Origin: a phage
Strand: one strand, 5' to 3'
Sequence record: PZ445502.1
DNA: 50,979 bases
Both the position numbers and the translations under genes were made by a program. The first letter of the stretch is position 1. Each line of letters opens with the position of its first letter. Under the pieces are notes generated by a model. The model searched no databases. It was not told the DNA's origin and saw only the letters and a program-made list of their open reading frames with translations. This document shows, piece by piece, positions 15,815 through 42,547 of the stretch.

Positions 15815-15845
15815 AAAAATACCCGCCTTGCGCGGGTTTTTTTGT
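15813..15845 (+). terminator. rho-independent terminator
   Basis: ACCCGCCTTGCGCGGGT hairpin followed by a T-run. Confidence 0.55.
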
Positions 15846-15892
15846 GCATTTATAATGTGCAAACCAAGAAACAGCACAAAAGGTTAAAAGTC

Positions 15893-18800
15893 ATGGCTAA
15901 ATATATGATAAGCGGCAGTAAGGGCGGAAGCAAAAAGCCATACGTGCCAAAAGAGATGGAAGATAACCTGATCTCGATAAACAAGATTAAAGTTTTGCTG
16001 GCTGTATCTGATGGCGAGTGCGATCCAGATTTCACGTTGCGCGATCTTTATCTTGATGATGTTCCGGTTATTGCCAGCGATGGCACTGTTAACTACGAGG
16101 GAGTTACGGCTGAATATCGACCGGGTACGCAGACGCAAGATTACATCCAGGGTTTTACTGACACATCAAGTGAGGTGACAGTTGCAAGAGATATTACCGG
16201 AGACAATCCTTATGTTATTTCTGTTACAAATAAAAATCTATCTGCGGTAAGAATAAAGATCCTGATGCCAGTAGGCATAAAACAGGAGGATAACGGCGAT
16301 CTTGTTGGCGTAAGGGTTGAGTATGCCGTAGATATGGCTATTGATGGCGGTTCTTATAGCGAGGTTATGAGAGATGTAATTGACGGCAAGACAAGATCAG
16401 GATACGACCGCAGCAGAAGGATTGATCTTCCTAAGTTTGATGAGCGCGTTTTAATCCGAGTAAAGCGACTGACTCCAGACAGCACATCTTCAAAGGTAAC
16501 TGATAAAATCAAGCTGCAAAGTTACGCTGAGGTTGTTGATGCAAAATTCCGTTATCCTCTGACTGGCCTTGTATTCGTAGAATTTGACAGTGAATTGTTT
16601 CCTACGCAAATCCCTAACATTTCTATAAAAAAGAAATGGAAGATTATTAATGTGCCAAGCAACTATGATCCAATATCAAGAGAATATCACGGGTCATGGG
16701 ATGGGACTTTTAAAAAAGCGTGGTCAAATAATCCCGCTTGGGTTCTTTATGATCTGGTGACAAATCAGCGTTATGGACTTGATCAGCGAGAGTTAGGAAT
16801 ACAGATCGACAAGTGGAGCTTATACGAGGCGGGCGTTTACTGTGATCAGAAAGTTCCAGACGGTAAGGGCGGTACTGAGCCTCGCTACCTATGCGATGTG
16901 GTGATTCAGAATCAAGTTGAGGCTTATCAGCTAATCCGTGACATTTGCTCAATCTTTCGCGGAATGAGTTTTTGGAATGGTGAGAGCTTATCAATCGTGA
17001 TTGATAAGCCACGCGATCCATCATACGTGTTTACTAATGAAAACGTCATCAACGGTGATTTTCAGTACACAACCGCAAGCGAAAAAAGCATGTACACGCA
17101 GTGTAACGTGACGTTTGACGACGAACAAAACATGTATCAGCAGGACGTAGAGGGTGTTTTTGATACTGAGGCGGCATTACGATTTGGATACAATCCAACA
17201 AGCATTACAGCGATCGGGTGCACACGCAGGAGCGAAGCGAATCGTCGCGGTCGGTGGGTTTTGAAAACAAACCTTAGAAGCACTACTGTAAACTTTGCTA
17301 CCGGACTAGAGGGGATGATTCCATCAATAGGTGATGTTATTGCTATCGCTGATAATTTTCAGAGTAGCAACCTAACGTTAAACCTATCGGGCCGAGTAAT
17401 GGAAGTTTCAGGATTGCAGGTTTTCGTTCCGTTTAAGGTTGATGCTCGCCCTGGTGATTTTATTATCATCAACAAGCCGGACGGCAAGCCAGTTAAGCGC
17501 ACGATCTCAAAGGTTAGCGCAGACGGAAAAACCATAGAGTTAAATATTGGATTTGGTTTTGATGTTAAGCCTGATACTGTTTTTGCGATTGACCGTACTG
17601 ATCTTGCGTTGCAGCAATACGTTGTGACAACTATCAGCAAGGGTGATGACGAAAACGAGTTTACCTATTCAATCACGGCTGTGGAGTACGATCCGAACAA
17701 ATACGACGAGATTGATTATGGCGTAAACATTGATGACAGGCCGACTTCAATTGTTCAGCCTGACGTGATGGCAGCGCCTGAGAACGTTAAGATCTCATCT
17801 TATTCTCGCGTCGTGCAGGGCGTTAGCGTTGAGACTATGGTTGTTTCATGGGATAAGGTTCCTTACGCATCGCTTTATGAAATGCAGTGGCGAAAAGGTG
17901 ATGGTAACTGGCTGAATACGCCGCAGACCGCTAACAAAGAGATAGAGGTAGAAGGGATTTATTCAGGCAACTACCAAGTAAGGGTGAGATCCGTTTCTGC
18001 AAGCGGTAACGCTTCCCCGTGGTCAAAGATTGCAACCGCCACTCTGACAGGTAAAGTTGGCGAGCCAGGAGCGCCGATTAATCTTACGGCTTCTGATAAT
18101 GAAGTTTTTGGCATTCGTGTCAAATGGGGTATGCCGGAAGGATCAGGCGATACGGCTTACATTGAGCTTCACCAATCGCCAGACGGAACGGTTGAAAACT
18201 CAAGTCTGCTTACGCTGATTCCATATCCTCAATATGAGTATTGGCATAGCACGTTACCAGCGGGGCAAGTTGTATGGTATAGAATCCGCAGCGTTGACAG
18301 AATAGGCAACGTTTCCAGTTGGACTGACTTTGTTCGCGGTATGGCGTCAGATGATGTTGAATCTGTTTTGGGCGACATTCTGGACAAGATTTTTGATACA
18401 GAAGCTGGTCAAGAAATCAAAGAGAACGCCATAGACAGCGCCAATAAAATCAAAGACCAGGCACAATCAATCATACAGAACGCGTTGGCAAATGATGCAG
18501 ATGTGAAGTGGACGCGAGTGCAAAACGGAAAGCGCAAGGCTGAATATGGTCATGCTCTTGAGCTTATCGCCAATGAAACAGAAGCGCGCGTAACTCAAAT
18601 CGAAGAGTTAAGGGCATCAATTGATGGCGAGATAACATCAAGCATCAAGACAGTGCAGGAGGCAATTGCCACTGAATCAGAGACGCGAGCGACTCAAATT
18701 CAGCAGCTTGATTCTAAATTCACAAAAGAAATCGACGGCGTGCGCAAGGATACTTCTGCAAGCATTAGCGATGTAAGGCAGACAATCACTAACGAGTCAG

Positions 18801-19471
18801 AAGCGCGCGCTCAGGCCGTTCAGCAGCTTGACGCTAAGTTCACGAAAGAGATAAACGACCTTGACGGAGTTATCAAAACAGAAGTCGAGGCTAACATCTC
18901 AGAAGTGAAACAGGCGATCGCCAATGAGACAGAGGCAAGGGTTCAGGCTGACCAGGCATTAACAGCACGATTTGGCGACGTTGAATCTGCATTGGTTGAA
19001 AAGTTGGATTCTTGGGCGAGCGTTGATTCAGTTGGCGCTAAATACGCTATGAAGCTTGGCCTTACTTACAAAGGCCAGCAATACAGCGCAGGAATGGTGA
19101 TGCAGCTTTCGCAGGGTTCATCCGGCCTTATCTCGCAAATTTTGTTTGATGCTAACAGGTTCGCCATTATGACTAGCTCTACTGGAGGGACTTTTACTTT
19201 GCCTTTCGTGGTTGAGAATAATCAGGTTTTCATTAATAGTCTTTTGGTTAAGAACGGTTCAATCACTAATGCGATGATTGGTAATGTGATTCAGTCAAAC
19301 AACTTTGTTCAAAACCAGCAAGGATGGAGGCTTGATAAAAACGGAATCTTTGAGAATTACGGATCAACGCCAGGAGAAGGAGCTACTAAATTCACCAATG
19401 AGGGATTGAAGGTAAAAGATGCAAACGGAGTATTGAGGGTTGAAGTCGGAAGGATTACCGGAAGCTGGTAA
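15893..19471 (+). CDS. central tail fibre / host specificity protein (lambda gpJ-like)
   Basis: about 1192 aa from ATG 15893 (track begins at TTG 15842); fibronectin-III-like segments; four ~33-aa repeats near the C-terminus; last gene of the tail module. Confidence 0.8.
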   Translation: MAKYMISGSKGGSKKPYVPKEMEDNLISINKIKVLLAVSDGECDPDFTLRDLYLDDVPVIASDGTVNYEGVTAEYRPGTQTQDYIQGFTDTSSEVTVARDITGDNPYVISVTNKNLSAVRIKILMPVGIKQEDNGDLVGVRVEYAVDMAIDGGSYSEVMRDVIDGKTRSGYDRSRRIDLPKFDERVLIRVKRLTPDSTSSKVTDKIKLQSYAEVVDAKFRYPLTGLVFVEFDSELFPTQIPNISIKKKWKIINVPSNYDPISREYHGSWDGTFKKAWSNNPAWVLYDLVTNQRYGLDQRELGIQIDKWSLYEAGVYCDQKVPDGKGGTEPRYLCDVVIQNQVEAYQLIRDICSIFRGMSFWNGESLSIVIDKPRDPSYVFTNENVINGDFQYTTASEKSMYTQCNVTFDDEQNMYQQDVEGVFDTEAALRFGYNPTSITAIGCTRRSEANRRGRWVLKTNLRSTTVNFATGLEGMIPSIGDVIAIADNFQSSNLTLNLSGRVMEVSGLQVFVPFKVDARPGDFIIINKPDGKPVKRTISKVSADGKTIELNIGFGFDVKPDTVFAIDRTDLALQQYVVTTISKGDDENEFTYSITAVEYDPNKYDEIDYGVNIDDRPTSIVQPDVMAAPENVKISSYSRVVQGVSVETMVVSWDKVPYASLYEMQWRKGDGNWLNTPQTANKEIEVEGIYSGNYQVRVRSVSASGNASPWSKIATATLTGKVGEPGAPINLTASDNEVFGIRVKWGMPEGSGDTAYIELHQSPDGTVENSSLLTLIPYPQYEYWHSTLPAGQVVWYRIRSVDRIGNVSSWTDFVRGMASDDVESVLGDILDKIFDTEAGQEIKENAIDSANKIKDQAQSIIQNALANDADVKWTRVQNGKRKAEYGHALELIANETEARVTQIEELRASIDGEITSSIKTVQEAIATESETRATQIQQLDSKFTKEIDGVRKDTSASISDVRQTITNESEARAQAVQQLDAKFTKEINDLDGVIKTEVEANISEVKQAIANETEARVQADQALTARFGDVESALVEKLDSWASVDSVGAKYAMKLGLTYKGQQYSAGMVMQLSQGSSGLISQILFDANRFAIMTSSTGGTFTLPFVVENNQVFINSLLVKNGSITNAMIGNVIQSNNFVQNQQGWRLDKNGIFENYGSTPGEGATKFTNEGLKVKDANGVLRVEVGRITGSW

Positions 19472-19500
19472 AAAAAGGGGGCATAGCCCCCTTTAATTTT
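19470..19500. terminator. bidirectional rho-independent terminator between convergent genes
   Basis: AAAAAAA-GGGGGCATAGCCCCC-TTTAATTTT. Confidence 0.65.
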
Positions 19501-20113
19501 AATCATAGTGTGATGCATTTATAACCAAAACAGATGAAGCGGTGTAAATACCAACAGGTCCAGGAGTTTGTGCAACCTGCCTAGAAAAAGAGTAGATCCC
19601 GTTACCATACGCGGCAGCTTGAGACTCAAAAATCATGAATCCACCTAAAGCCGGATTAGGAACAGAGTTTAATGCTGTCAGTGATGGCATTATGGCGCAA
19701 GGATAGCCCATGTTAACATCAAATGCGATCCCGCTTACTCCTACTTGCTTTGCATCTAGCGGCCTCATTTTTCCATGATAAACCATTTCACCATGAGCAT
19801 TATAAAACGCTATGCCGTGACTACCTGGGGGAGTCACCATATTACTAAAAGCATAAACAATAACCTCACCCTGATTATCAGATCTATCAAGTCTTATTGC
19901 GTGCCTTCCACCATTGTTAAATTGCGTGAATGATATGTATGATTTAGCGGTCAATCTAACAAAGAAAAAACATACCCTATCAACAGGAATTGACGAAGTA
20001 AAAACGGTTCCGGTATTAGCAGATATTACGGCCCGATCAATTAGATTAACTGGAGTGAAATCTGGACTTAACCATAACGATCCGTCTGATTTTTTTATAC
20101 TCATCCCGTACAT
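19499..20113 (-). CDS. hypothetical protein (candidate receptor-binding accessory protein)
   Basis: 204 aa from ATG with GGGGGTGA SD (track begins at TTG 20125); sits between the gpJ-like gene and the lipoprotein gene. Confidence 0.45.
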   Translation of the reverse strand: MYGMSIKKSDGSLWLSPDFTPVNLIDRAVISANTGTVFTSSIPVDRVCFFFVRLTAKSYISFTQFNNGGRHAIRLDRSDNQGEVIVYAFSNMVTPPGSHGIAFYNAHGEMVYHGKMRPLDAKQVGVSGIAFDVNMGYPCAIMPSLTALNSVPNPALGGFMIFESQAAAYGNGIYSFSRQVAQTPGPVGIYTASSVLVINASHYD

Positions 20114-20115
20114 TA

Positions 20116-20394
20116 TCACCCCCAAAAAGTATATATATATCTTGAATCAGATCCAGAAAGCCCACTCCATGTAACGGTGTCGCCACTCACCCCTAAGTTT
20201 GGTGCGCCAGGGTCGCCACCACGCCAGGAATTCATGCCAACATATATTGCTTTCAATGATTTACCTGGCGGCCTGTTTTGGTAAGTCTTGCTACCTGATG
20301 GCTGAGTGAATTTATCAAGGAAGAAAACAGGCGTTAAAAGTCCTGTAACTTCCCTTCCTCGATCGTCATATATTGCATAACCATATTGCGCCAT
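20116..20394 (-). CDS. hypothetical protein
   Basis: 92 aa; GAGGTG SD; in operon with the lipoprotein gene. Confidence 0.45.
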   Translation of the reverse strand: MAQYGYAIYDDRGREVTGLLTPVFFLDKFTQPSGSKTYQNRPPGKSLKAIYVGMNSWRGGDPGAPNLGVSGDTVTWSGLSGSDSRYIYTFWG

Positions 20395-20663
20395 TAATTA
20401 CACCTCAAATCAATAAATTTACTTTCATTTTGCCAACGGTTGATAAATTTAACTTCTTTATTGTCAACGCTCAACCTGTATTGCTTTTGGCTGAATCTGT
20501 TTTCGCGGACTGCATTAATTTTGACTTCATGGAATCCGTTAACAGGGAATGTTTTAACGTTAAATTTTGCCGTGCAATCGATCTCCTTGAAGTTGCCAGT
20601 AGGCGACGCTGCGCATCCTGTCAGAGCGGCTACAGTGGCGATAACTGCGATTAACTTTTTCAT
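20394..20663 (-). CDS. small outer-membrane lipoprotein, Cor/Llp-like superinfection exclusion candidate
   Basis: 89 aa; signal peptide with lipobox LTGC; AAGGAG SD; next to the tail fibre region. Confidence 0.55.
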   Translation of the reverse strand: MKKLIAVIATVAALTGCAASPTGNFKEIDCTAKFNVKTFPVNGFHEVKINAVRENRFSQKQYRLSVDNKEVKFINRWQNESKFIDLRCN

Positions 20664-20694
20664 CTTTATATCTCCTTAGTTGTTGTTGTTTTCA

Positions 20695-20740
20695 ACTATA
20701 CACGATCTTGGGCATCGCGTTTAGCAAAAAGTGCTATTTG
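20695..20740 (-). promoter_or_regulatory. motif-class promoter (motif, ~21 nt, TATAGT) reading toward the lipoprotein operon
   Basis: minus strand reads AATAGCACTTTTTGCTAAAC then 21 nt then TATAGT. Confidence 0.5.
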
Positions 20741-33658: not shown

Positions 33659-34149
33659 TGAGCATAAAGAACAGGGTAGCGGCGGCGGCCTTTGGCGTTG
33701 CGGTTGCCTTGACTTCTCCACTTCTTGAAGAGATCGAAGGGGTAAGATACAAGCCATACAAAGATATTGCGGGAGTATGGACGGTTTGCGCAGGAATCAC
33801 CGGACCCGATGTTATCCTGGGGAAAACGTACACTAAAAAAGAGTGTGATGCTTTGTTGGCTAAGCATATCCAGGTTGCTAAAAAGGAAGTTGACAAGCAA
33901 GTTAAGGTTTACATTCCTGATAGTATGCGTGCAGCAATGTACTCATTCACTTACAATGCAGGTGTGGGAGCTTTCAGAAATTCAACAATGCTGAAACTCA
34001 TCAACCAGGGGAAATTAAACGAGGCTTGCGATCAGCTTTATCGTTGGACTTATTACCATAACCCAAAAACAGGAAAGCGAGAGAAGTCTAAAGGCTTGCT
34101 TAACAGGCGCAAGGTCGAATACAAATATTGCACAATGGATCTTAAATGA
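33658..34149 (+). CDS. SAR endolysin (T4-lysozyme-type muramidase)
   Basis: 163 aa; N-terminal weakly hydrophobic signal-anchor-release segment; catalytic E-D-T spacing in EEIEG...YKD...T. Confidence 0.7.
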
Positions 34150-34541
34150 TGAAGAAATTTTTACTTACACCAATCGCAATGGCGGTGATCTTGTCTGGAT
34201 GTTCAAGCGTTACGCCACTGACCGGATTAATCGGCAGTAAGCCGGAAATCACAGCGCAGGCTGGCGCGGAGAACGTGAAGCAGACAGTTGGCATTACAGC
34301 AAGGCAGGACGCCAGCACAAAACAGGAAACCACAATAAAGGAATCTGCGGTTGACAAGGTGGACACGTCCAGCAAGAAGGATTTCACAACATCAACCATT
34401 CAGGCCAATACCATCAAGGCAGACAAAATTCAGGTCGTGCAGGGTAATAACGGCAGATGGTACGATCCAGTAATCATATGCGTGGTTGTGTTTCTTGTGC
34501 TGATTTGTCTTTACTGGATAGAAAAGAAAAAGGAGGCTTAA
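34146..34541 (+). CDS. unimolecular spanin (lipoprotein with C-terminal transmembrane helix)
   Basis: 131 aa; lipobox LSGC at the N-terminus and C-terminal TM helix, as in the T1 u-spanin. Confidence 0.6.
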
Positions 34542-41813: not shown

Positions 41814-42278
41814 ATGGAACAGAAGACCACTAAGGACTATTGCGATTGGCTTCGCGAGCTTGGTCGCCGCCTGGCTAGTGGCGATATTGAAGAGTATAAA
41901 ATGTCACTAATTGACCTGGCCGGAATGTTAAGCGGTGACGACTGCTACAAGATCACGCGCAGTTCATCCTACAGCCGGACCATTATCAACCGCGTTCCAG
42001 AAGTAAGGGCCGCAGGTCGGGTAAGCATCAAGGTAGAGGAAACGGAAGATGATAAATTTTACGTTTTCCGCATGGTCCGCGAATCGAAAAGGAAAATCAT
42101 CACACCCGAAGAATTGCCAGCCATCAAGGCAAGGGCGATCAAAAAGTTTGCCGATCGCATACTGGCAGCAATCCCGAATATCGTTGACCTGGAAGGGGAT
42201 AAACTGGCTGGGGCTTGCGAGGGCGTAAGCCGCTACCAGGATATGATCCGCGAAATCATCAAAGAGGAAGAGCAATGA
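41814..42278 (+). CDS. hypothetical protein, first early gene
   Basis: 154 aa from ATG 41814 with GGAGG SD. Confidence 0.45.
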   Translation: MEQKTTKDYCDWLRELGRRLASGDIEEYKMSLIDLAGMLSGDDCYKITRSSSYSRTIINRVPEVRAAGRVSIKVEETEDDKFYVFRMVRESKRKIITPEELPAIKARAIKKFADRILAAIPNIVDLEGDKLAGACEGVSRYQDMIREIIKEEEQ

Positions 42279-42547
42279 AAAAGGCATTAATCAGCGTTTT
42301 GGCGGCAATGGCATTCCTGACCGGATGCAAAGAAGATGGCGCGCATGTTGGCAATGTGCAGATGGCTAACCCTGGCGATGACTACAGCGTAAGGGAGCTA
42401 TTCACCGCTGACGGTTGCACCGTTTACCGATTCTATGACGATCGCACTGTTTACTTCACCAACTGCAAGGGCGCTACTAGCTGGGAAGTGTCGAAAAGCA
42501 ATGGCAAAGGCACGAAGACAGAACATATGACCGTCGAGACAAAATAG
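42275..42547 (+). CDS. small lipoprotein (second lipoprotein; Llp/Cor-like candidate)
   Basis: 90 aa; signal peptide with lipobox LTGC; ATGA overlap with the upstream gene. Confidence 0.5.
   Translation: MKKALISVLAAMAFLTGCKEDGAHVGNVQMANPGDDYSVRELFTADGCTVYRFYDDRTVYFTNCKGATSWEVSKSNGKGTKTEHMTVETK

What the first reader, a model, noticed from the sequence alone, without database searches (positions are those of the whole stretch)
20394..20663. Cor/Llp-like small lipoprotein next to the tail fibre genes
The 89-aa product has a lipoprotein signal peptide (MKKLIAVIATVAALTGC) and is transcribed from a motif-class promoter divergently from the tail module. In T5 (Llp) and in phi80/N15/T1-type phages (Cor), a small lipoprotein in this position inactivates the phage's own outer-membrane receptor. 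It therefore hints at receptor identity as well as superinfection exclusion.
Basis: partly seen in the sequence, partly recalled or inferred. Interest (0 to 1): 0.5.

Follow-up and report, generated by a model that had tools for sequence, protein, structure and literature searches.

The report
Phage lipoprotein that likely blocks BtuB
This small gene of a T1-like coliphage encodes an outer-membrane lipoprotein, a distant relative of the Cor/Llp proteins, that most likely shuts off the phage's own receptor (the vitamin B12 transporter BtuB) after infection; it is an expected, so far untested, member of a known kind of system.

Summary
The 89-aa ORF at 20394-20663 (-) is real. It has a canonical lipoprotein signal (LTGC) and a strong ribosome-binding site, and it sits behind one copy of a promoter-like motif found 19 times in the window. 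One detail of the finding is wrong: the gene is convergent with the tail-tip gene J, not divergent. It is the first gene of a three-gene minus-strand operon that also holds the two receptor-binding-locus genes (92 aa and 204 aa).

The window is a Warwickvirus-like Drexlerviridae genome. The three proteins are 98.5-98.9% identical to those of phage FritzSarasin and 56-72% identical to those of KarlJaspers. Both phages need BtuB experimentally. PeterMerian has a 96% identical J but carries a T1-type Cor locus and uses FhuA.

The database "Cor" hits come from the signal peptide. With the signal peptide removed, profile-profile comparison still links the mature domain to:
- Cor (P=5e-5, Cys to Cys)
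- T5 Llp (P=6e-4)
- BF23 Llp, more weakly (P=3e-3)

Verdict: this is a BtuB-associated branch of the Cor/Llp superinfection-exclusion lipoproteins. It is not a Cor family member in the strict sense, and the function is inferred, not tested. It is a new member of a known kind, of modest interest.

The parts
20695..20733 (-). Promoter-like element. It holds the class motif CACTTTTTGCTAAAC (20719-20733) and the -10-like hexamer TATAGT (20695-20700).
   Evidence: The motif occurs 19 times in the window against 2.9 expected. Its geometry is the same in most copies. Both blocks are conserved upstream of the lipoprotein genes of FritzSarasin, KarlJaspers and PeterMerian, and are recognisable in T1 as TTGCAA-17-TACAAT. 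The generic sigma-70 scan did not call it, because the spacing from TTGCTA to TATAGT is 21 nt.
20672..20677 (-). Ribosome-binding site AAGGAG, 8 nt upstream of the ATG.
   Evidence: Read directly from the sequence. It is conserved in the four Tempevirinae loci aligned (GACGAG in T1).
20394..20663 (-). Gene for the 89-aa lipoprotein precursor, the putative BtuB-directed superinfection-exclusion protein. Signal peptide: residues 1-16. Lipid-modified Cys17: 20613-20615. Conserved Cys30 and Cys88 in the mature part.
   Evidence: ORF and sequence. Family conservation. Remote homology to Cor/Llp. Fold. 98.9% identical to bas04_0025 of the BtuB-dependent phage FritzSarasin.
20116..20394 (-). Gene for a 92-aa protein of the receptor-binding locus. 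Its start overlaps the lipoprotein stop (TAATG).
   Evidence: phrog_557, E=4e-20. 98.9% identical to the FritzSarasin protein and 72% to the KarlJaspers protein. It is the counterpart of T1 gp32 / N15 gp22.
19499..20113 (-). Gene for a 204-aa protein, the probable receptor-binding protein of the BtuB-type locus. The mechanical ORF begins at a TTG at 20125; homologues begin at the ATG at 20113.
   Evidence: phrog_425, E=1e-49. 98.5% identical to the FritzSarasin protein and 64% to the KarlJaspers protein. About 81 phage records hold a copy at 60% identity or more, close to the number of Drexlerviridae/Dhillonvirus records that carry the lipoprotein. The literature places the receptor-binding protein in this locus.
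19474..19494 (.). GC-rich hairpin flanked by A and T runs, between the convergent J gene and the 204-aa gene. Probably a bidirectional terminator.
   Evidence: Terminator scan.
15893..19471 (+). J-like tail-tip gene, to which the locus-encoded receptor-binding protein is thought to attach.
   Evidence: ORF. 96% identical to J of PeterMerian (FhuA), 88.6% to FritzSarasin and 89.6% to KarlJaspers. The last ~30 residues are identical to FritzSarasin.

Best explanation
The gene encodes a small lipoprotein made from a promoter class that otherwise serves only non-structural genes of the phage.

Proposed mechanism:
1. The precursor is exported and lipidated at Cys17.
2. Because residue +2 is Ala, it is delivered to the inner leaflet of the outer membrane.
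3. The roughly 60-residue beta-barrel domain has its ends tied by a Cys30-Cys88 disulphide. It hangs on a ~12-residue tether in the periplasm.
4. It binds the periplasmic face (plug region) of BtuB, the TonB-dependent vitamin B12 transporter that this phage uses as its terminal receptor.
5. By analogy with T5 Llp on FhuA, binding locks the transporter in a state whose extracellular loops no longer accept the phage's receptor-binding protein.
6. The infected cell and its debris then stop adsorbing further BtuB-dependent phages. B12 uptake and killing by BtuB-dependent colicins are probably blocked as well.

Shown here: the lipoprotein signal, the operon anatomy, remote homology to Cor/Llp, and the match between locus type and BtuB dependence in relatives.

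Inferred: outer-membrane location, the disulphide, binding to BtuB, the allosteric mechanism, early expression and the exclusion phenotype.
For: 1. The lipobox, ribosome-binding site and conserved promoter motif are present.
2. The three-gene locus is 98.5-98.9% identical to that of FritzSarasin (Bas04). It has the same layout as the KarlJaspers (Bas06) locus, at 56-72% identity. Both phages have BtuB as their experimentally determined terminal receptor (BASEL S5 table, PMC8594841).
3. PeterMerian (Bas05) has a J protein 96% identical to the window's. It carries a T1-type locus with a 75-aa Cor and uses FhuA. The lipoprotein type therefore follows the receptor, not the backbone.
4. The literature agrees. 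Loci downstream of gpJ encode the receptor-binding protein plus a cognate exclusion protein (PMC8594841). The locus type correlates with FhuA, BtuB, LptD or YncD in 64 T1-like phages (bioRxiv 10.64898/2026.04.02.716166). A BtuB-using Tempevirinae phage was reported to carry a Cor-like protein (PMC13164509).
5. Mature-domain hhalign, with the signal peptide and lipid Cys removed:
   - Cor: score 26.6, P=5e-5, 56 columns from the first to the last conserved Cys.
   - T5 Llp: 21.7, P=6e-4.
   - BF23 Llp: 19.4, P=3e-3.
   - Maxima of 100 column-shuffled templates: 15.3, 18.8 and 20.8. Reversed templates: 8.9-9.7.
7. The two-Cys pattern matches the Cys11-Cys58 disulphide that ties the termini of T5 Llp (PMC9586334).
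8. Rtp has the same layout, with the lipoprotein gene first and the receptor-binding gene second, convergent with J. Its lipoprotein Rtp45 is a structurally proven exclusion protein bound to the periplasmic side of the receptor LptDE (PMC12685063).
Against: - No experiment on this family was found in the searchable literature.
- The sequence links to Cor and Llp are weak. hhalign probabilities are 67%, 29% and 10%. The BF23 Llp score is reached by about 1 in 100 shuffles.
- The curated Cor model scores 19.2 bits against a cutoff of 31.
- The PHROG Cor hit disappears once the signal peptide is removed.
- Foldseek against the PDB found nothing significant.
- The model rests on only 13 sequences, with overall pLDDT 72.8.
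- Binding to BtuB was not modelled or tested.
- Co-transcription with the receptor-binding genes differs from T1 and T5, where the lipoprotein gene has its own transcription unit.
Confidence: 0.7

Rival explanations
1. It is a canonical Cor protein that inactivates FhuA, as in T1, phi80 and N15.
For: It hits PHROG 1119 'Cor superinfection exclusion protein' at E=8e-8. One GenBank record annotates a 97.8% identical protein as Cor (H61). The strongest remote-homology score is to Cor.
Against: - The PHROG hit is lost without the signal peptide.
- The window's own spanin also hits PHROG 1119, at 1e-5.
- NCBIfam Cor scores 19.2 bits, below the cutoff of 31.
- BLASTP to T1 Cor aligns residues 1-34 only.
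- The two characterised relatives that carry this lipoprotein need BtuB, whereas the relative with a true Cor needs FhuA.
Confidence: 0.05
2. It is an accessory or assembly factor for the receptor-binding proteins and contributes to host specificity, rather than being an exclusion protein.
For: It is translationally coupled to the 92-aa and 204-aa genes in one operon. [quoted passage not shown]
Against: - A lipidated, exported protein is in the wrong compartment to help cytoplasmic tail assembly.
- It is remotely homologous to Cor and Llp.
- In Rtp, which has the same layout, the lipoprotein is a proven exclusion factor.
- In Privateervirus phages the homologue sits among early metabolic genes, far from tail genes.
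Confidence: 0.1
3. It is an envelope lipoprotein that acts on a step other than receptor binding. Examples are blocking DNA entry after adsorption, acting on TonB or another periplasmic partner, or mainly protecting progeny from inactivation on debris.
For: Nothing here shows direct binding to BtuB. Small phage lipoproteins have varied roles. The window holds a second small lipoprotein of unknown function.
Against: The lipoprotein type follows the receptor type across near-identical backbones. That is expected for a receptor-specific binder and not for a general envelope factor. The solved examples, Llp-FhuA and Rtp45-LptDE, both bind the receptor itself.
Confidence: 0.12
4. It is a chance ORF or a non-functional remnant.
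For: Most GenBank records label it only 'hypothetical protein'.
Against: - It has a strong ribosome-binding site and a conserved promoter.
- It is conserved at protein level from 100% down to about 30% identity in 91 phage records, and in 25 cluster representatives among 1.84 billion proteins.
- The lipobox and two further Cys are conserved: invariant in the 13 close homologues and retained by eye in the wider family.

Confidence: 0.01

Closest known systems
Cor lipoproteins of T1, phi80, N15 and HK022 (NCBIfam NF047972; PHROG 1119)
   Same: - A small exported lipoprotein encoded beside the receptor-binding locus downstream of gpJ.
- A near-identical promoter region and signal peptide in Tempevirinae.
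- Two conserved Cys near the ends of the mature domain.
- The best remote-homology score of all families compared: hhalign 26.6, P=5e-5, 56 columns.
   Different: - The mature domain is 14 residues longer (72 against 58).
- It is below the curated Cor cutoff (19.2 against 31 bits).
- BLAST finds no similarity beyond residue 34.
- It is associated with BtuB, not FhuA.
- It is co-oriented and co-transcribed with the two receptor-binding-locus genes. In T1 and PeterMerian those genes lie on the J strand and cor stands alone.
T5 Llp, the lytic conversion lipoprotein (PDB 8A60 in complex with FhuA)
   Same: - A small outer-membrane lipoprotein next to the receptor-binding gene.
- A Cys pair equivalent to the Cys11-Cys58 disulphide of Llp.
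- hhalign 21.7, P=6e-4, above all 100 shuffles.
- A TonB-dependent transporter as the presumed target.
   Different: - It comes from a different phage family and has a different target (BtuB against FhuA).
- HMMER search of PDB sequences found no similarity.
- Foldseek did not recover Llp.
- The structural match is no better than to generic SH3-like barrels.
BF23-type Llp, the 'receptor-blocking protein' of BtuB-dependent T5-like phages (BF23, EPS7, phiR2-01)
   Same: - The same presumed target, BtuB.
- Almost the same length (88 against 89 aa).
- BLASTP 31% identity over residues 1-63.
- Shared motifs: C-T-[AG], VK[ST]F, VR..[DN]RF, G.W....F....C.
- The phiR2-01 protein is the best named BFVD hit.
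   Different: - The mature-only profile score is only borderline: 19.4, P=3e-3, with a shuffle maximum of 20.8.
- tblastn with either protein does not find the other family.
- The companion receptor-binding proteins are very different: pb5-like, about 595 aa, against 204 aa plus 92 aa here.
Rtp45 (Pfam PF24052 Phage_lipoprotein), the LptDE-directed exclusion lipoprotein of Rtp (PDB 9RPS)
   Same: - The same phage family.
- The same layout: lipoprotein gene first, then the receptor-binding gene, both convergent with J.
- The same logic: a periplasmic lipoprotein that alters the extracellular loops of the receptor.
   Different: - No detectable homology: no PF24052 hit and hhalign P=0.085.
- A different Cys pattern (Cys30-Cys38 hairpin).
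- The target is not a TonB-dependent transporter.

Membership tests
Bacterial lipoprotein (signal peptidase II substrate) | An N-terminal signal with a positive n-region, a hydrophobic core and a lipobox [LVI][ASTVI][GAS]C | tested here: met
   The sequence is MKK-LIAVIATVAA-LTGC. The Pfam LPAM_1 match is weak. The pattern scan finds only three such ORFs in the window. The lipobox Cys (preceded by Gly) is invariant in the 13 aligned homologues and a lipobox is present by eye in the 23 wider-family representatives read.
Bacterial lipoprotein (signal peptidase II substrate) | Outer-membrane sorting, shown by the absence of Asp at position +2 | tested here: met
   The mature N-terminus is C-A-A-S. 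The sorting rule is from my knowledge of E. coli Lol sorting. Localisation itself was not tested.
Cor (NCBIfam NF047972 lamb_exclu_cor; PHROG 1119) | A score at or above the curated family cutoff | tested here: not met
   NF047972 gives 19.2 bits against a cutoff of 31. T1 Cor gives 55.8.
Cor (NCBIfam NF047972 lamb_exclu_cor; PHROG 1119) | Similarity of the mature domain, not only of the signal peptide | tested here: inconclusive
   The PHROG 1119 hit (E=8e-8) vanishes when residues 1-17 are removed. The spanin also hits it at 1e-5. Mature-only profile-profile comparison still gives P=5e-5, probability 67%, over 56 columns, and the shuffle maximum is 15.3 against 26.6 observed. This supports a superfamily-level relation, not family membership.
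Cor (NCBIfam NF047972 lamb_exclu_cor; PHROG 1119) | Association with a FhuA-type receptor-binding locus and a FhuA-dependent phage | tested here: not met
   The locus is 98.5-98.9% identical to that of BtuB-dependent FritzSarasin. FhuA-dependent PeterMerian and T1 carry a different lipoprotein and a different layout.
Cor (NCBIfam NF047972 lamb_exclu_cor; PHROG 1119) | Expression abolishes FhuA-dependent phage infection and FhuA-dependent uptake | not testable with these tools
   This needs an expression experiment.
Llp (T5 type) | The fold of Llp as solved in 8A60 | tested here: inconclusive
Llp (T5 type) | An intramolecular disulphide that ties the N- and C-terminal ends of the mature domain | tested here: inconclusive
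   Cys30 and Cys88 are invariant in the 13 close homologues and are retained, by eye, across the wider family. They align with the Cys pair of Cor; the alignment to T5 Llp covers only the first Cys and stops short of the C-terminal one. Llp has a Cys11-Cys58 disulphide. Bond formation itself cannot be tested here.
Llp (BF23 type, BtuB receptor-blocking protein) | Sequence or structure similarity to BF23 Llp | tested here: inconclusive
   BLASTP gives 31% identity over 63 residues, signal peptide included. Mature-only hhalign gives P=0.021 with the narrow profile and P=0.003 with the wide profile, with a shuffle maximum of 20.8 against 19.4 observed. The BFVD hit to the phiR2-01 receptor-blocking protein has E=0.025 and TM 0.44.
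Rtp45 family (Pfam PF24052 Phage_lipoprotein) | A match to PF24052 | tested here: not met
   There is no PF24052 hit at E up to 1. Rtp45 itself scores 128 bits. hhalign gives P=0.085.
Receptor-binding-locus exclusion lipoproteins of small siphophages (functional class, BASEL definition) | Encoded in the variable locus directly downstream of gpJ, together with the receptor-binding protein | tested here: met
   The gene order is J (+), then 204 aa, 92 aa and the lipoprotein (all -), then exonuclease VIII (+). FritzSarasin and KarlJaspers have the same order. The class is defined in PMC8594841.
Receptor-binding-locus exclusion lipoproteins of small siphophages (functional class, BASEL definition) | The allele co-varies with the experimentally determined terminal receptor | tested here: met
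   This type occurs in BtuB phages Bas04 and Bas06, Cor in FhuA phages Bas05 and T1, and Rtp45 with LptD. The sample of characterised phages is small.
Receptor-binding-locus exclusion lipoproteins of small siphophages (functional class, BASEL definition) | Confers exclusion of phages that use the same receptor | not testable with these tools
   No experimental report for this family was found.

The most novel reading that the evidence does not exclude
This BtuB-associated family may be the sequence bridge that joins Cor, T5 Llp and BF23 Llp into one superfamily of disulphide-clamped mini-barrels that jam the plugs of TonB-dependent transporters. It scores better against Cor and against T5 Llp than those two score against each other.

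On this reading, specificity has switched between FhuA and BtuB on a single scaffold. The scaffold moves as a cassette together with the matching receptor-binding genes. The right-hand recombination junction of the cassette lies exactly at the lipobox, so the promoter and signal peptide act as a universal adaptor.

In the BtuB cassette the receptor blocker and the receptor binder would also be made from one transcript that starts at an early-type promoter.
Probability: 0.4. Interest if true: 0.45.

Novelty: new member of a known kind. Interest (0 to 1): 0.3.

Why it matters
- **Receptor prediction.** If confirmed, the gene is a compact marker that predicts BtuB as this phage's terminal receptor.
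- **A natural BtuB inhibitor.** It would add a second, independent lineage of BtuB-directed receptor-blocking lipoproteins beside BF23 Llp. That is useful for comparing how one small fold is retargeted between TonB-dependent transporters.
- **Phage cocktails.** Phages that carry it should exclude other BtuB-dependent phages.
- **Annotation.** Automatic 'Cor' labels on small phage lipoproteins can rest on the signal peptide alone, so they say nothing about which receptor is blocked.

The general principle is already established, by Llp-FhuA, by Rtp45-LptDE and by the BASEL locus analysis. The gain is therefore incremental.

Tried and rejected
- **Pfam scan.** Only sub-threshold matches, to the lipid attachment site and DUF6491.
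- **HMMER against PDB sequences.** Nothing relevant.
- **Foldseek against the PDB.** No hit below E=0.9, and neither Llp nor Rtp45 was recovered.
- **PHROG 'Cor' hit.** First taken as evidence of membership, then rejected. It disappears without the signal peptide, and the spanin gives the same hit.
- **Generic sigma-70 scan.** It found no minus-strand promoter upstream of the gene. The conserved element was found only by aligning related loci and searching for the motif.
- **First mature-only hhalign against BF23 Llp, with the narrow 13-sequence profile.** Only P=0.021. A wider profile was needed.
- **Rtp45 homology.** Rejected.
- **Search for papers linking SECphi27 to BtuB.** None found.
- **The LptD outbreak paper (PMC13035648).** Not relevant to this locus type.
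- **Model coordinates.** Not available to scripts, so the Cys30-Cys88 distance could not be measured.
- **Complex prediction with BtuB.** Not possible with these tools.
Full report
**1. The observation**

The window holds an ATG-initiated ORF of 89 codons at 20394-20663 on the minus strand.
- Its N-terminus, MKKLIAVIATVAALTGC, is a textbook lipoprotein signal with lipobox L-T-G-C. Ala follows the lipid Cys.
- An AAGGAG ribosome-binding site lies 8 nt upstream of the ATG.
- A pattern scan of all six frames finds only three lipoprotein-signal ORFs in the 51 kb: this one, the unimolecular spanin (34146-34541) and a second small lipoprotein (42275-42547).
- The protein occurs in 91 phage records. 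Among 13 homologues of 53-97% identity, 32 columns are invariant, including Cys17, Cys30 and Cys88.

The ORF is therefore a real gene.

- CACTTTTTG(T/C)TAAA(A/C) occurs 19 times at up to 3 mismatches, against 2.9 expected. No shuffle out of 100 reaches 19.
- In 13 of the 19 copies a -10-like hexamer follows TTGNTA at a fixed 22 nt, and in those copies the predicted start codon lies 68-79 nt from the motif start (120 nt in one).
- The copy before this gene is at 20719-20733 (-). TATAGT lies at 20695-20700, at 21-nt spacing, and the ATG is 70 nt from the motif start.
- Both blocks are conserved upstream of the equivalent genes of FritzSarasin, KarlJaspers and PeterMerian. In T1 they read TTGCAA-17-TACAAT.
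- No copy of the motif lies inside the plus-strand structural block at about 10-19.5 kb. This suggests, but does not prove, an early or middle promoter class.

One statement in the finding is wrong. The gene is not divergent from the tail module. It is transcribed towards the J-like tail-tip gene (15893-19471, +) and diverges from the exonuclease VIII gene (21165, +).

**2. Anatomy of the locus**

The lipoprotein gene is the first of three minus-strand genes.
- Its stop codon overlaps the start of a 92-aa gene (TAATG at 20394).
- That gene is followed after 2 nt by a 204-aa gene (19499-20113). The mechanical ORF starts at a TTG at 20125, but homologues start at the ATG.
- A GC-rich hairpin flanked by A and T runs (19474-19494) separates this block from the convergent J gene.
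- The two downstream proteins belong to PHROG 557 and PHROG 425. These are the families of T1 gp32 and gp31, and of N15 gp22 and gp23.

In T1 and in PeterMerian these two genes lie on the J strand, and cor stands alone on the opposite strand. Here, in FritzSarasin and in KarlJaspers, the pair is inverted and lies downstream of the lipoprotein gene. Rtp has the same layout, with rtp45 followed by rtp44.

**3. Identity of the phage and of the receptor**

The window is a complete or nearly complete Warwickvirus-like Tempevirinae (Drexlerviridae) genome. It is 97-98% identical to XY3, tunus, JK16 and relatives.

Identity of the window's three locus proteins, in the order lipoprotein / 92 aa / 204 aa:

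| Phage | Lipoprotein | 92 aa | 204 aa |
|---|---|---|---|
| FritzSarasin (Bas04) | 98.9% | 98.9% | 98.5% |
| KarlJaspers (Bas06) | 56% | 72% | 64% |

- The BASEL S5 table gives BtuB as the experimentally determined terminal receptor of both phages (PMC8594841).
- PeterMerian (Bas05) has a J protein 96% identical to the window's, closer than FritzSarasin's at 88.6%. It carries a T1-type locus with a 75-aa Cor and uses FhuA.
- The BASEL paper states that these loci encode the receptor-binding protein together with a cognate exclusion protein, and that the alleles match the receptor.
- A 2026 preprint with genome-wide screens confirms the correlation for FhuA, BtuB, LptD and YncD. It lists 18 BtuB-specific Drexlerviridae-like phages.
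- The KanT1 paper notes a Cor-like protein in a BtuB-using Tempevirinae BASEL phage.
- The number of phage records with the 204-aa protein at 60% identity or more (about 81) matches the number of Drexlerviridae/Dhillonvirus records with the lipoprotein (about 82). The two appear to travel together.

The receptor indicated is therefore BtuB.

**4. Is it Cor/Llp-like?**

Database labels point to Cor: PHROG 1119 at E=8e-8 and NCBIfam NF047972 at E=9e-4. Most of that signal comes from the signal peptide.
- The PHROG hit disappears when residues 1-17 are removed.
- BLASTP to T1 Cor aligns residues 1-34 only.
- The window's spanin also hits PHROG 1119, at 1e-5.
- The NCBIfam score of 19.2 bits is below the cutoff of 31, whereas T1 Cor scores 55.8.

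DNA alignment explains why. The promoter, ribosome-binding site and signal-peptide coding sequence are almost identical between loci of this type (FritzSarasin, KarlJaspers) and the Cor-type locus of PeterMerian. The sequences diverge completely right after the lipobox Cys codon.

I then tested the mature domains alone.
- An exhaustive profile search gave a small family: 25 cluster representatives at E up to 1e-3 among 1.84 billion proteins.
- By eye, the members share C-[TS]-[AG]-x-[YF], a V-R-x-[DN]-R-[FV]-G core, G-x-W-Q...F and a C-terminal Cys.

Profile-profile comparison of this family, with the signal peptide and lipid Cys removed:

| Template | Score | P | Probability | Maximum of 100 column-shuffled templates |
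|---|---|---|---|---|
| Cor (21 sequences) | 26.6 | 5e-5 | 67% | 15.3 |
| T5 Llp | 21.7 | 6e-4 | 29% | 18.8 |
| BF23 Llp family | 19.4 | 3e-3 | 10% | 20.8 |
| Rtp45 | 11.8 | 0.085 | - | not run |

- The Cor alignment covers 56 columns, from the first to the last conserved Cys.
- Reversed templates score 8.9-9.7.
- Cor against T5 Llp scores only 18.2, and Cor against BF23 Llp only 16.1. This family therefore links the others better than they link to each other.

Structure agrees, weakly.
- The AF2 model has overall pLDDT 72.8, with 10-residue block means of 76-87 over the mature part. It shows a five-strand small barrel.
- Foldseek against the PDB is negative.
- In BFVD the best hits are family members from Providencia and Proteus phages. 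The first named outsider is the 'receptor-blocking protein' of the BtuB-dependent T5-like phage phiR2-01 (E 0.025).
- The Cys30/Cys88 pair corresponds to the Cys11-Cys58 disulphide that ties the termini of Llp.

Conclusion: this is a distinct family within a Cor/Llp superfamily. It is not a Cor member in the strict sense, and it is unrelated to Rtp45.

**5. Most likely mechanism**

By homology, position and co-variation with the receptor, the protein is most likely handled and acts as follows:
1. It is exported and lipidated.
2. It is sent to the inner leaflet of the outer membrane.
3. It binds the periplasmic face of BtuB.
4. Binding stabilises a state whose extracellular loops no longer accept the phage's receptor-binding protein.

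This is the mechanism shown for Llp on FhuA (PMC9586334). It was proposed there to be general for TonB-dependent transporters. The consequences would be exclusion of BtuB-dependent phages, protection of progeny from debris, and probably loss of B12 uptake and of killing by BtuB-dependent colicins.

- Shown here: the signal sequence, the operon, the remote homology and the locus-receptor match.
- Inferred: localisation, the disulphide, binding to BtuB, allostery, timing and phenotype.
- Confidence: about 0.7.

**6. Rivals**

| Rival explanation | Confidence | Main argument against |
|---|---|---|
| A canonical FhuA-directed Cor | 0.05 | Contradicted by sections 3 and 4 |
| An assembly or specificity accessory of the receptor-binding proteins | 0.1 | A lipoprotein is in the wrong compartment, and the Rtp precedent points the other way |
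| An envelope lipoprotein acting after adsorption or on another partner | 0.12 | Receptor-linked allele switching argues against it |
| A chance ORF | 0.01 | Conservation, ribosome-binding site and promoter |

**7. Novelty**

The kind of system is well known, and the BtuB-type locus has already been described by comparative genomics. No experiment on this lipoprotein family turned up, and most records call it hypothetical. It is a new, untested member of a known kind. Interest is modest (0.3).

The more interesting points are secondary:
- its bridging position among Cor, T5 Llp and BF23 Llp;
- the cassette junction at the lipobox;
- co-transcription of the blocker and the binder.

Noticed in passing
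window, 19 sites: 1570, 5753, 6191, 9941, 20719, 26504, 28066, 30555, 31604, 34843, 37005, 37679, 39877, 41181, 42548, 43011, 45527, 47037, 48331: A promoter-like motif class, (AATAG)CACTTTTTGTTAAAA. A -10-like hexamer follows at a fixed 22 nt from TTGNTA in 13 of the 19 copies, which is too far for a canonical -35. Several copies appear, by eye, to have a GC-rich inverted repeat in the spacer. All copies lie outside the plus-strand structural block. The timing of these promoters and the factor that reads them are unknown.
   Followed up: partly
window 42275-42547 (+): A second small lipoprotein gene (90 aa, MKKALISVLAAMAFLTGC...). It belongs to PHROG 6360, of unknown function, and ends immediately upstream of a copy of the promoter motif (42548). 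It could be another envelope-modifying or exclusion factor.
   Followed up: partly
window 34146-34541 (+): The unimolecular spanin (PHROG 1804, E=4e-46) also hits PHROG 1119 'Cor superinfection exclusion protein' at E=1e-5, although the mature part of the finding's own protein shows no such hit. Automatic 'Cor' labels on small phage lipoproteins can therefore be unreliable.
   Followed up: yes
window 20613-20733 (-); L001, L005 and L006 at equivalent positions: The promoter, ribosome-binding site and signal-peptide coding sequence are shared almost base for base between the BtuB-type loci and the Cor/FhuA-type locus of PeterMerian. Divergence begins right after the lipobox Cys codon, so the right-hand junction of the exchangeable receptor cassette lies at the lipobox.
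   Followed up: partly
window 19380-19471 (+), the 3' end of the J gene: The last ~30 residues of J are identical to FritzSarasin (BtuB) but differ from PeterMerian (FhuA), although the rest of J is closer to PeterMerian. KarlJaspers (BtuB) resembles PeterMerian there. The J tip is therefore part of the cassette shared with FritzSarasin, but it is not strictly receptor-specific.
   Followed up: partly
window 19499-20113 (-): The putative receptor-binding protein has full-length homologues at about 44% identity in many Stx-converting phages (for example 933W L0127). It also has homologues at about 42% identity in the ~60-kb phages JenP2 and BRET.
   Followed up: no
L007 6001-6276 (Proteus phage 3H10_20); L008 6001-6276 (Cronobacter phage vB_CsaP_009): Privateervirus phages of about 90 kb carry a homologue of the lipoprotein at about 30% identity. 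It sits among early and metabolic genes (NAD salvage, RNA ligase, tRNAs), far from tail genes. vB_CsaP_009 also has a partial homologue of the 204-aa protein about 32 kb away (H320).
   Followed up: partly
phage records MG065643, MG065649, MG065680, MG065681 and others: Several records of about 50 kb labelled 'Campylobacter phage' carry this T1-like locus, or the Cor locus. They look like Drexlerviridae coliphages and may be mislabelled or contaminant sequences.
   Followed up: no
window 15842-15892 and 20114-20125: The mechanical ORF calls for J (TTG at 15842) and for the 208-aa ORF (TTG at 20125) are probably over-extended. Homologues start at the internal ATGs, at 15893 and 20113.
   Followed up: yes
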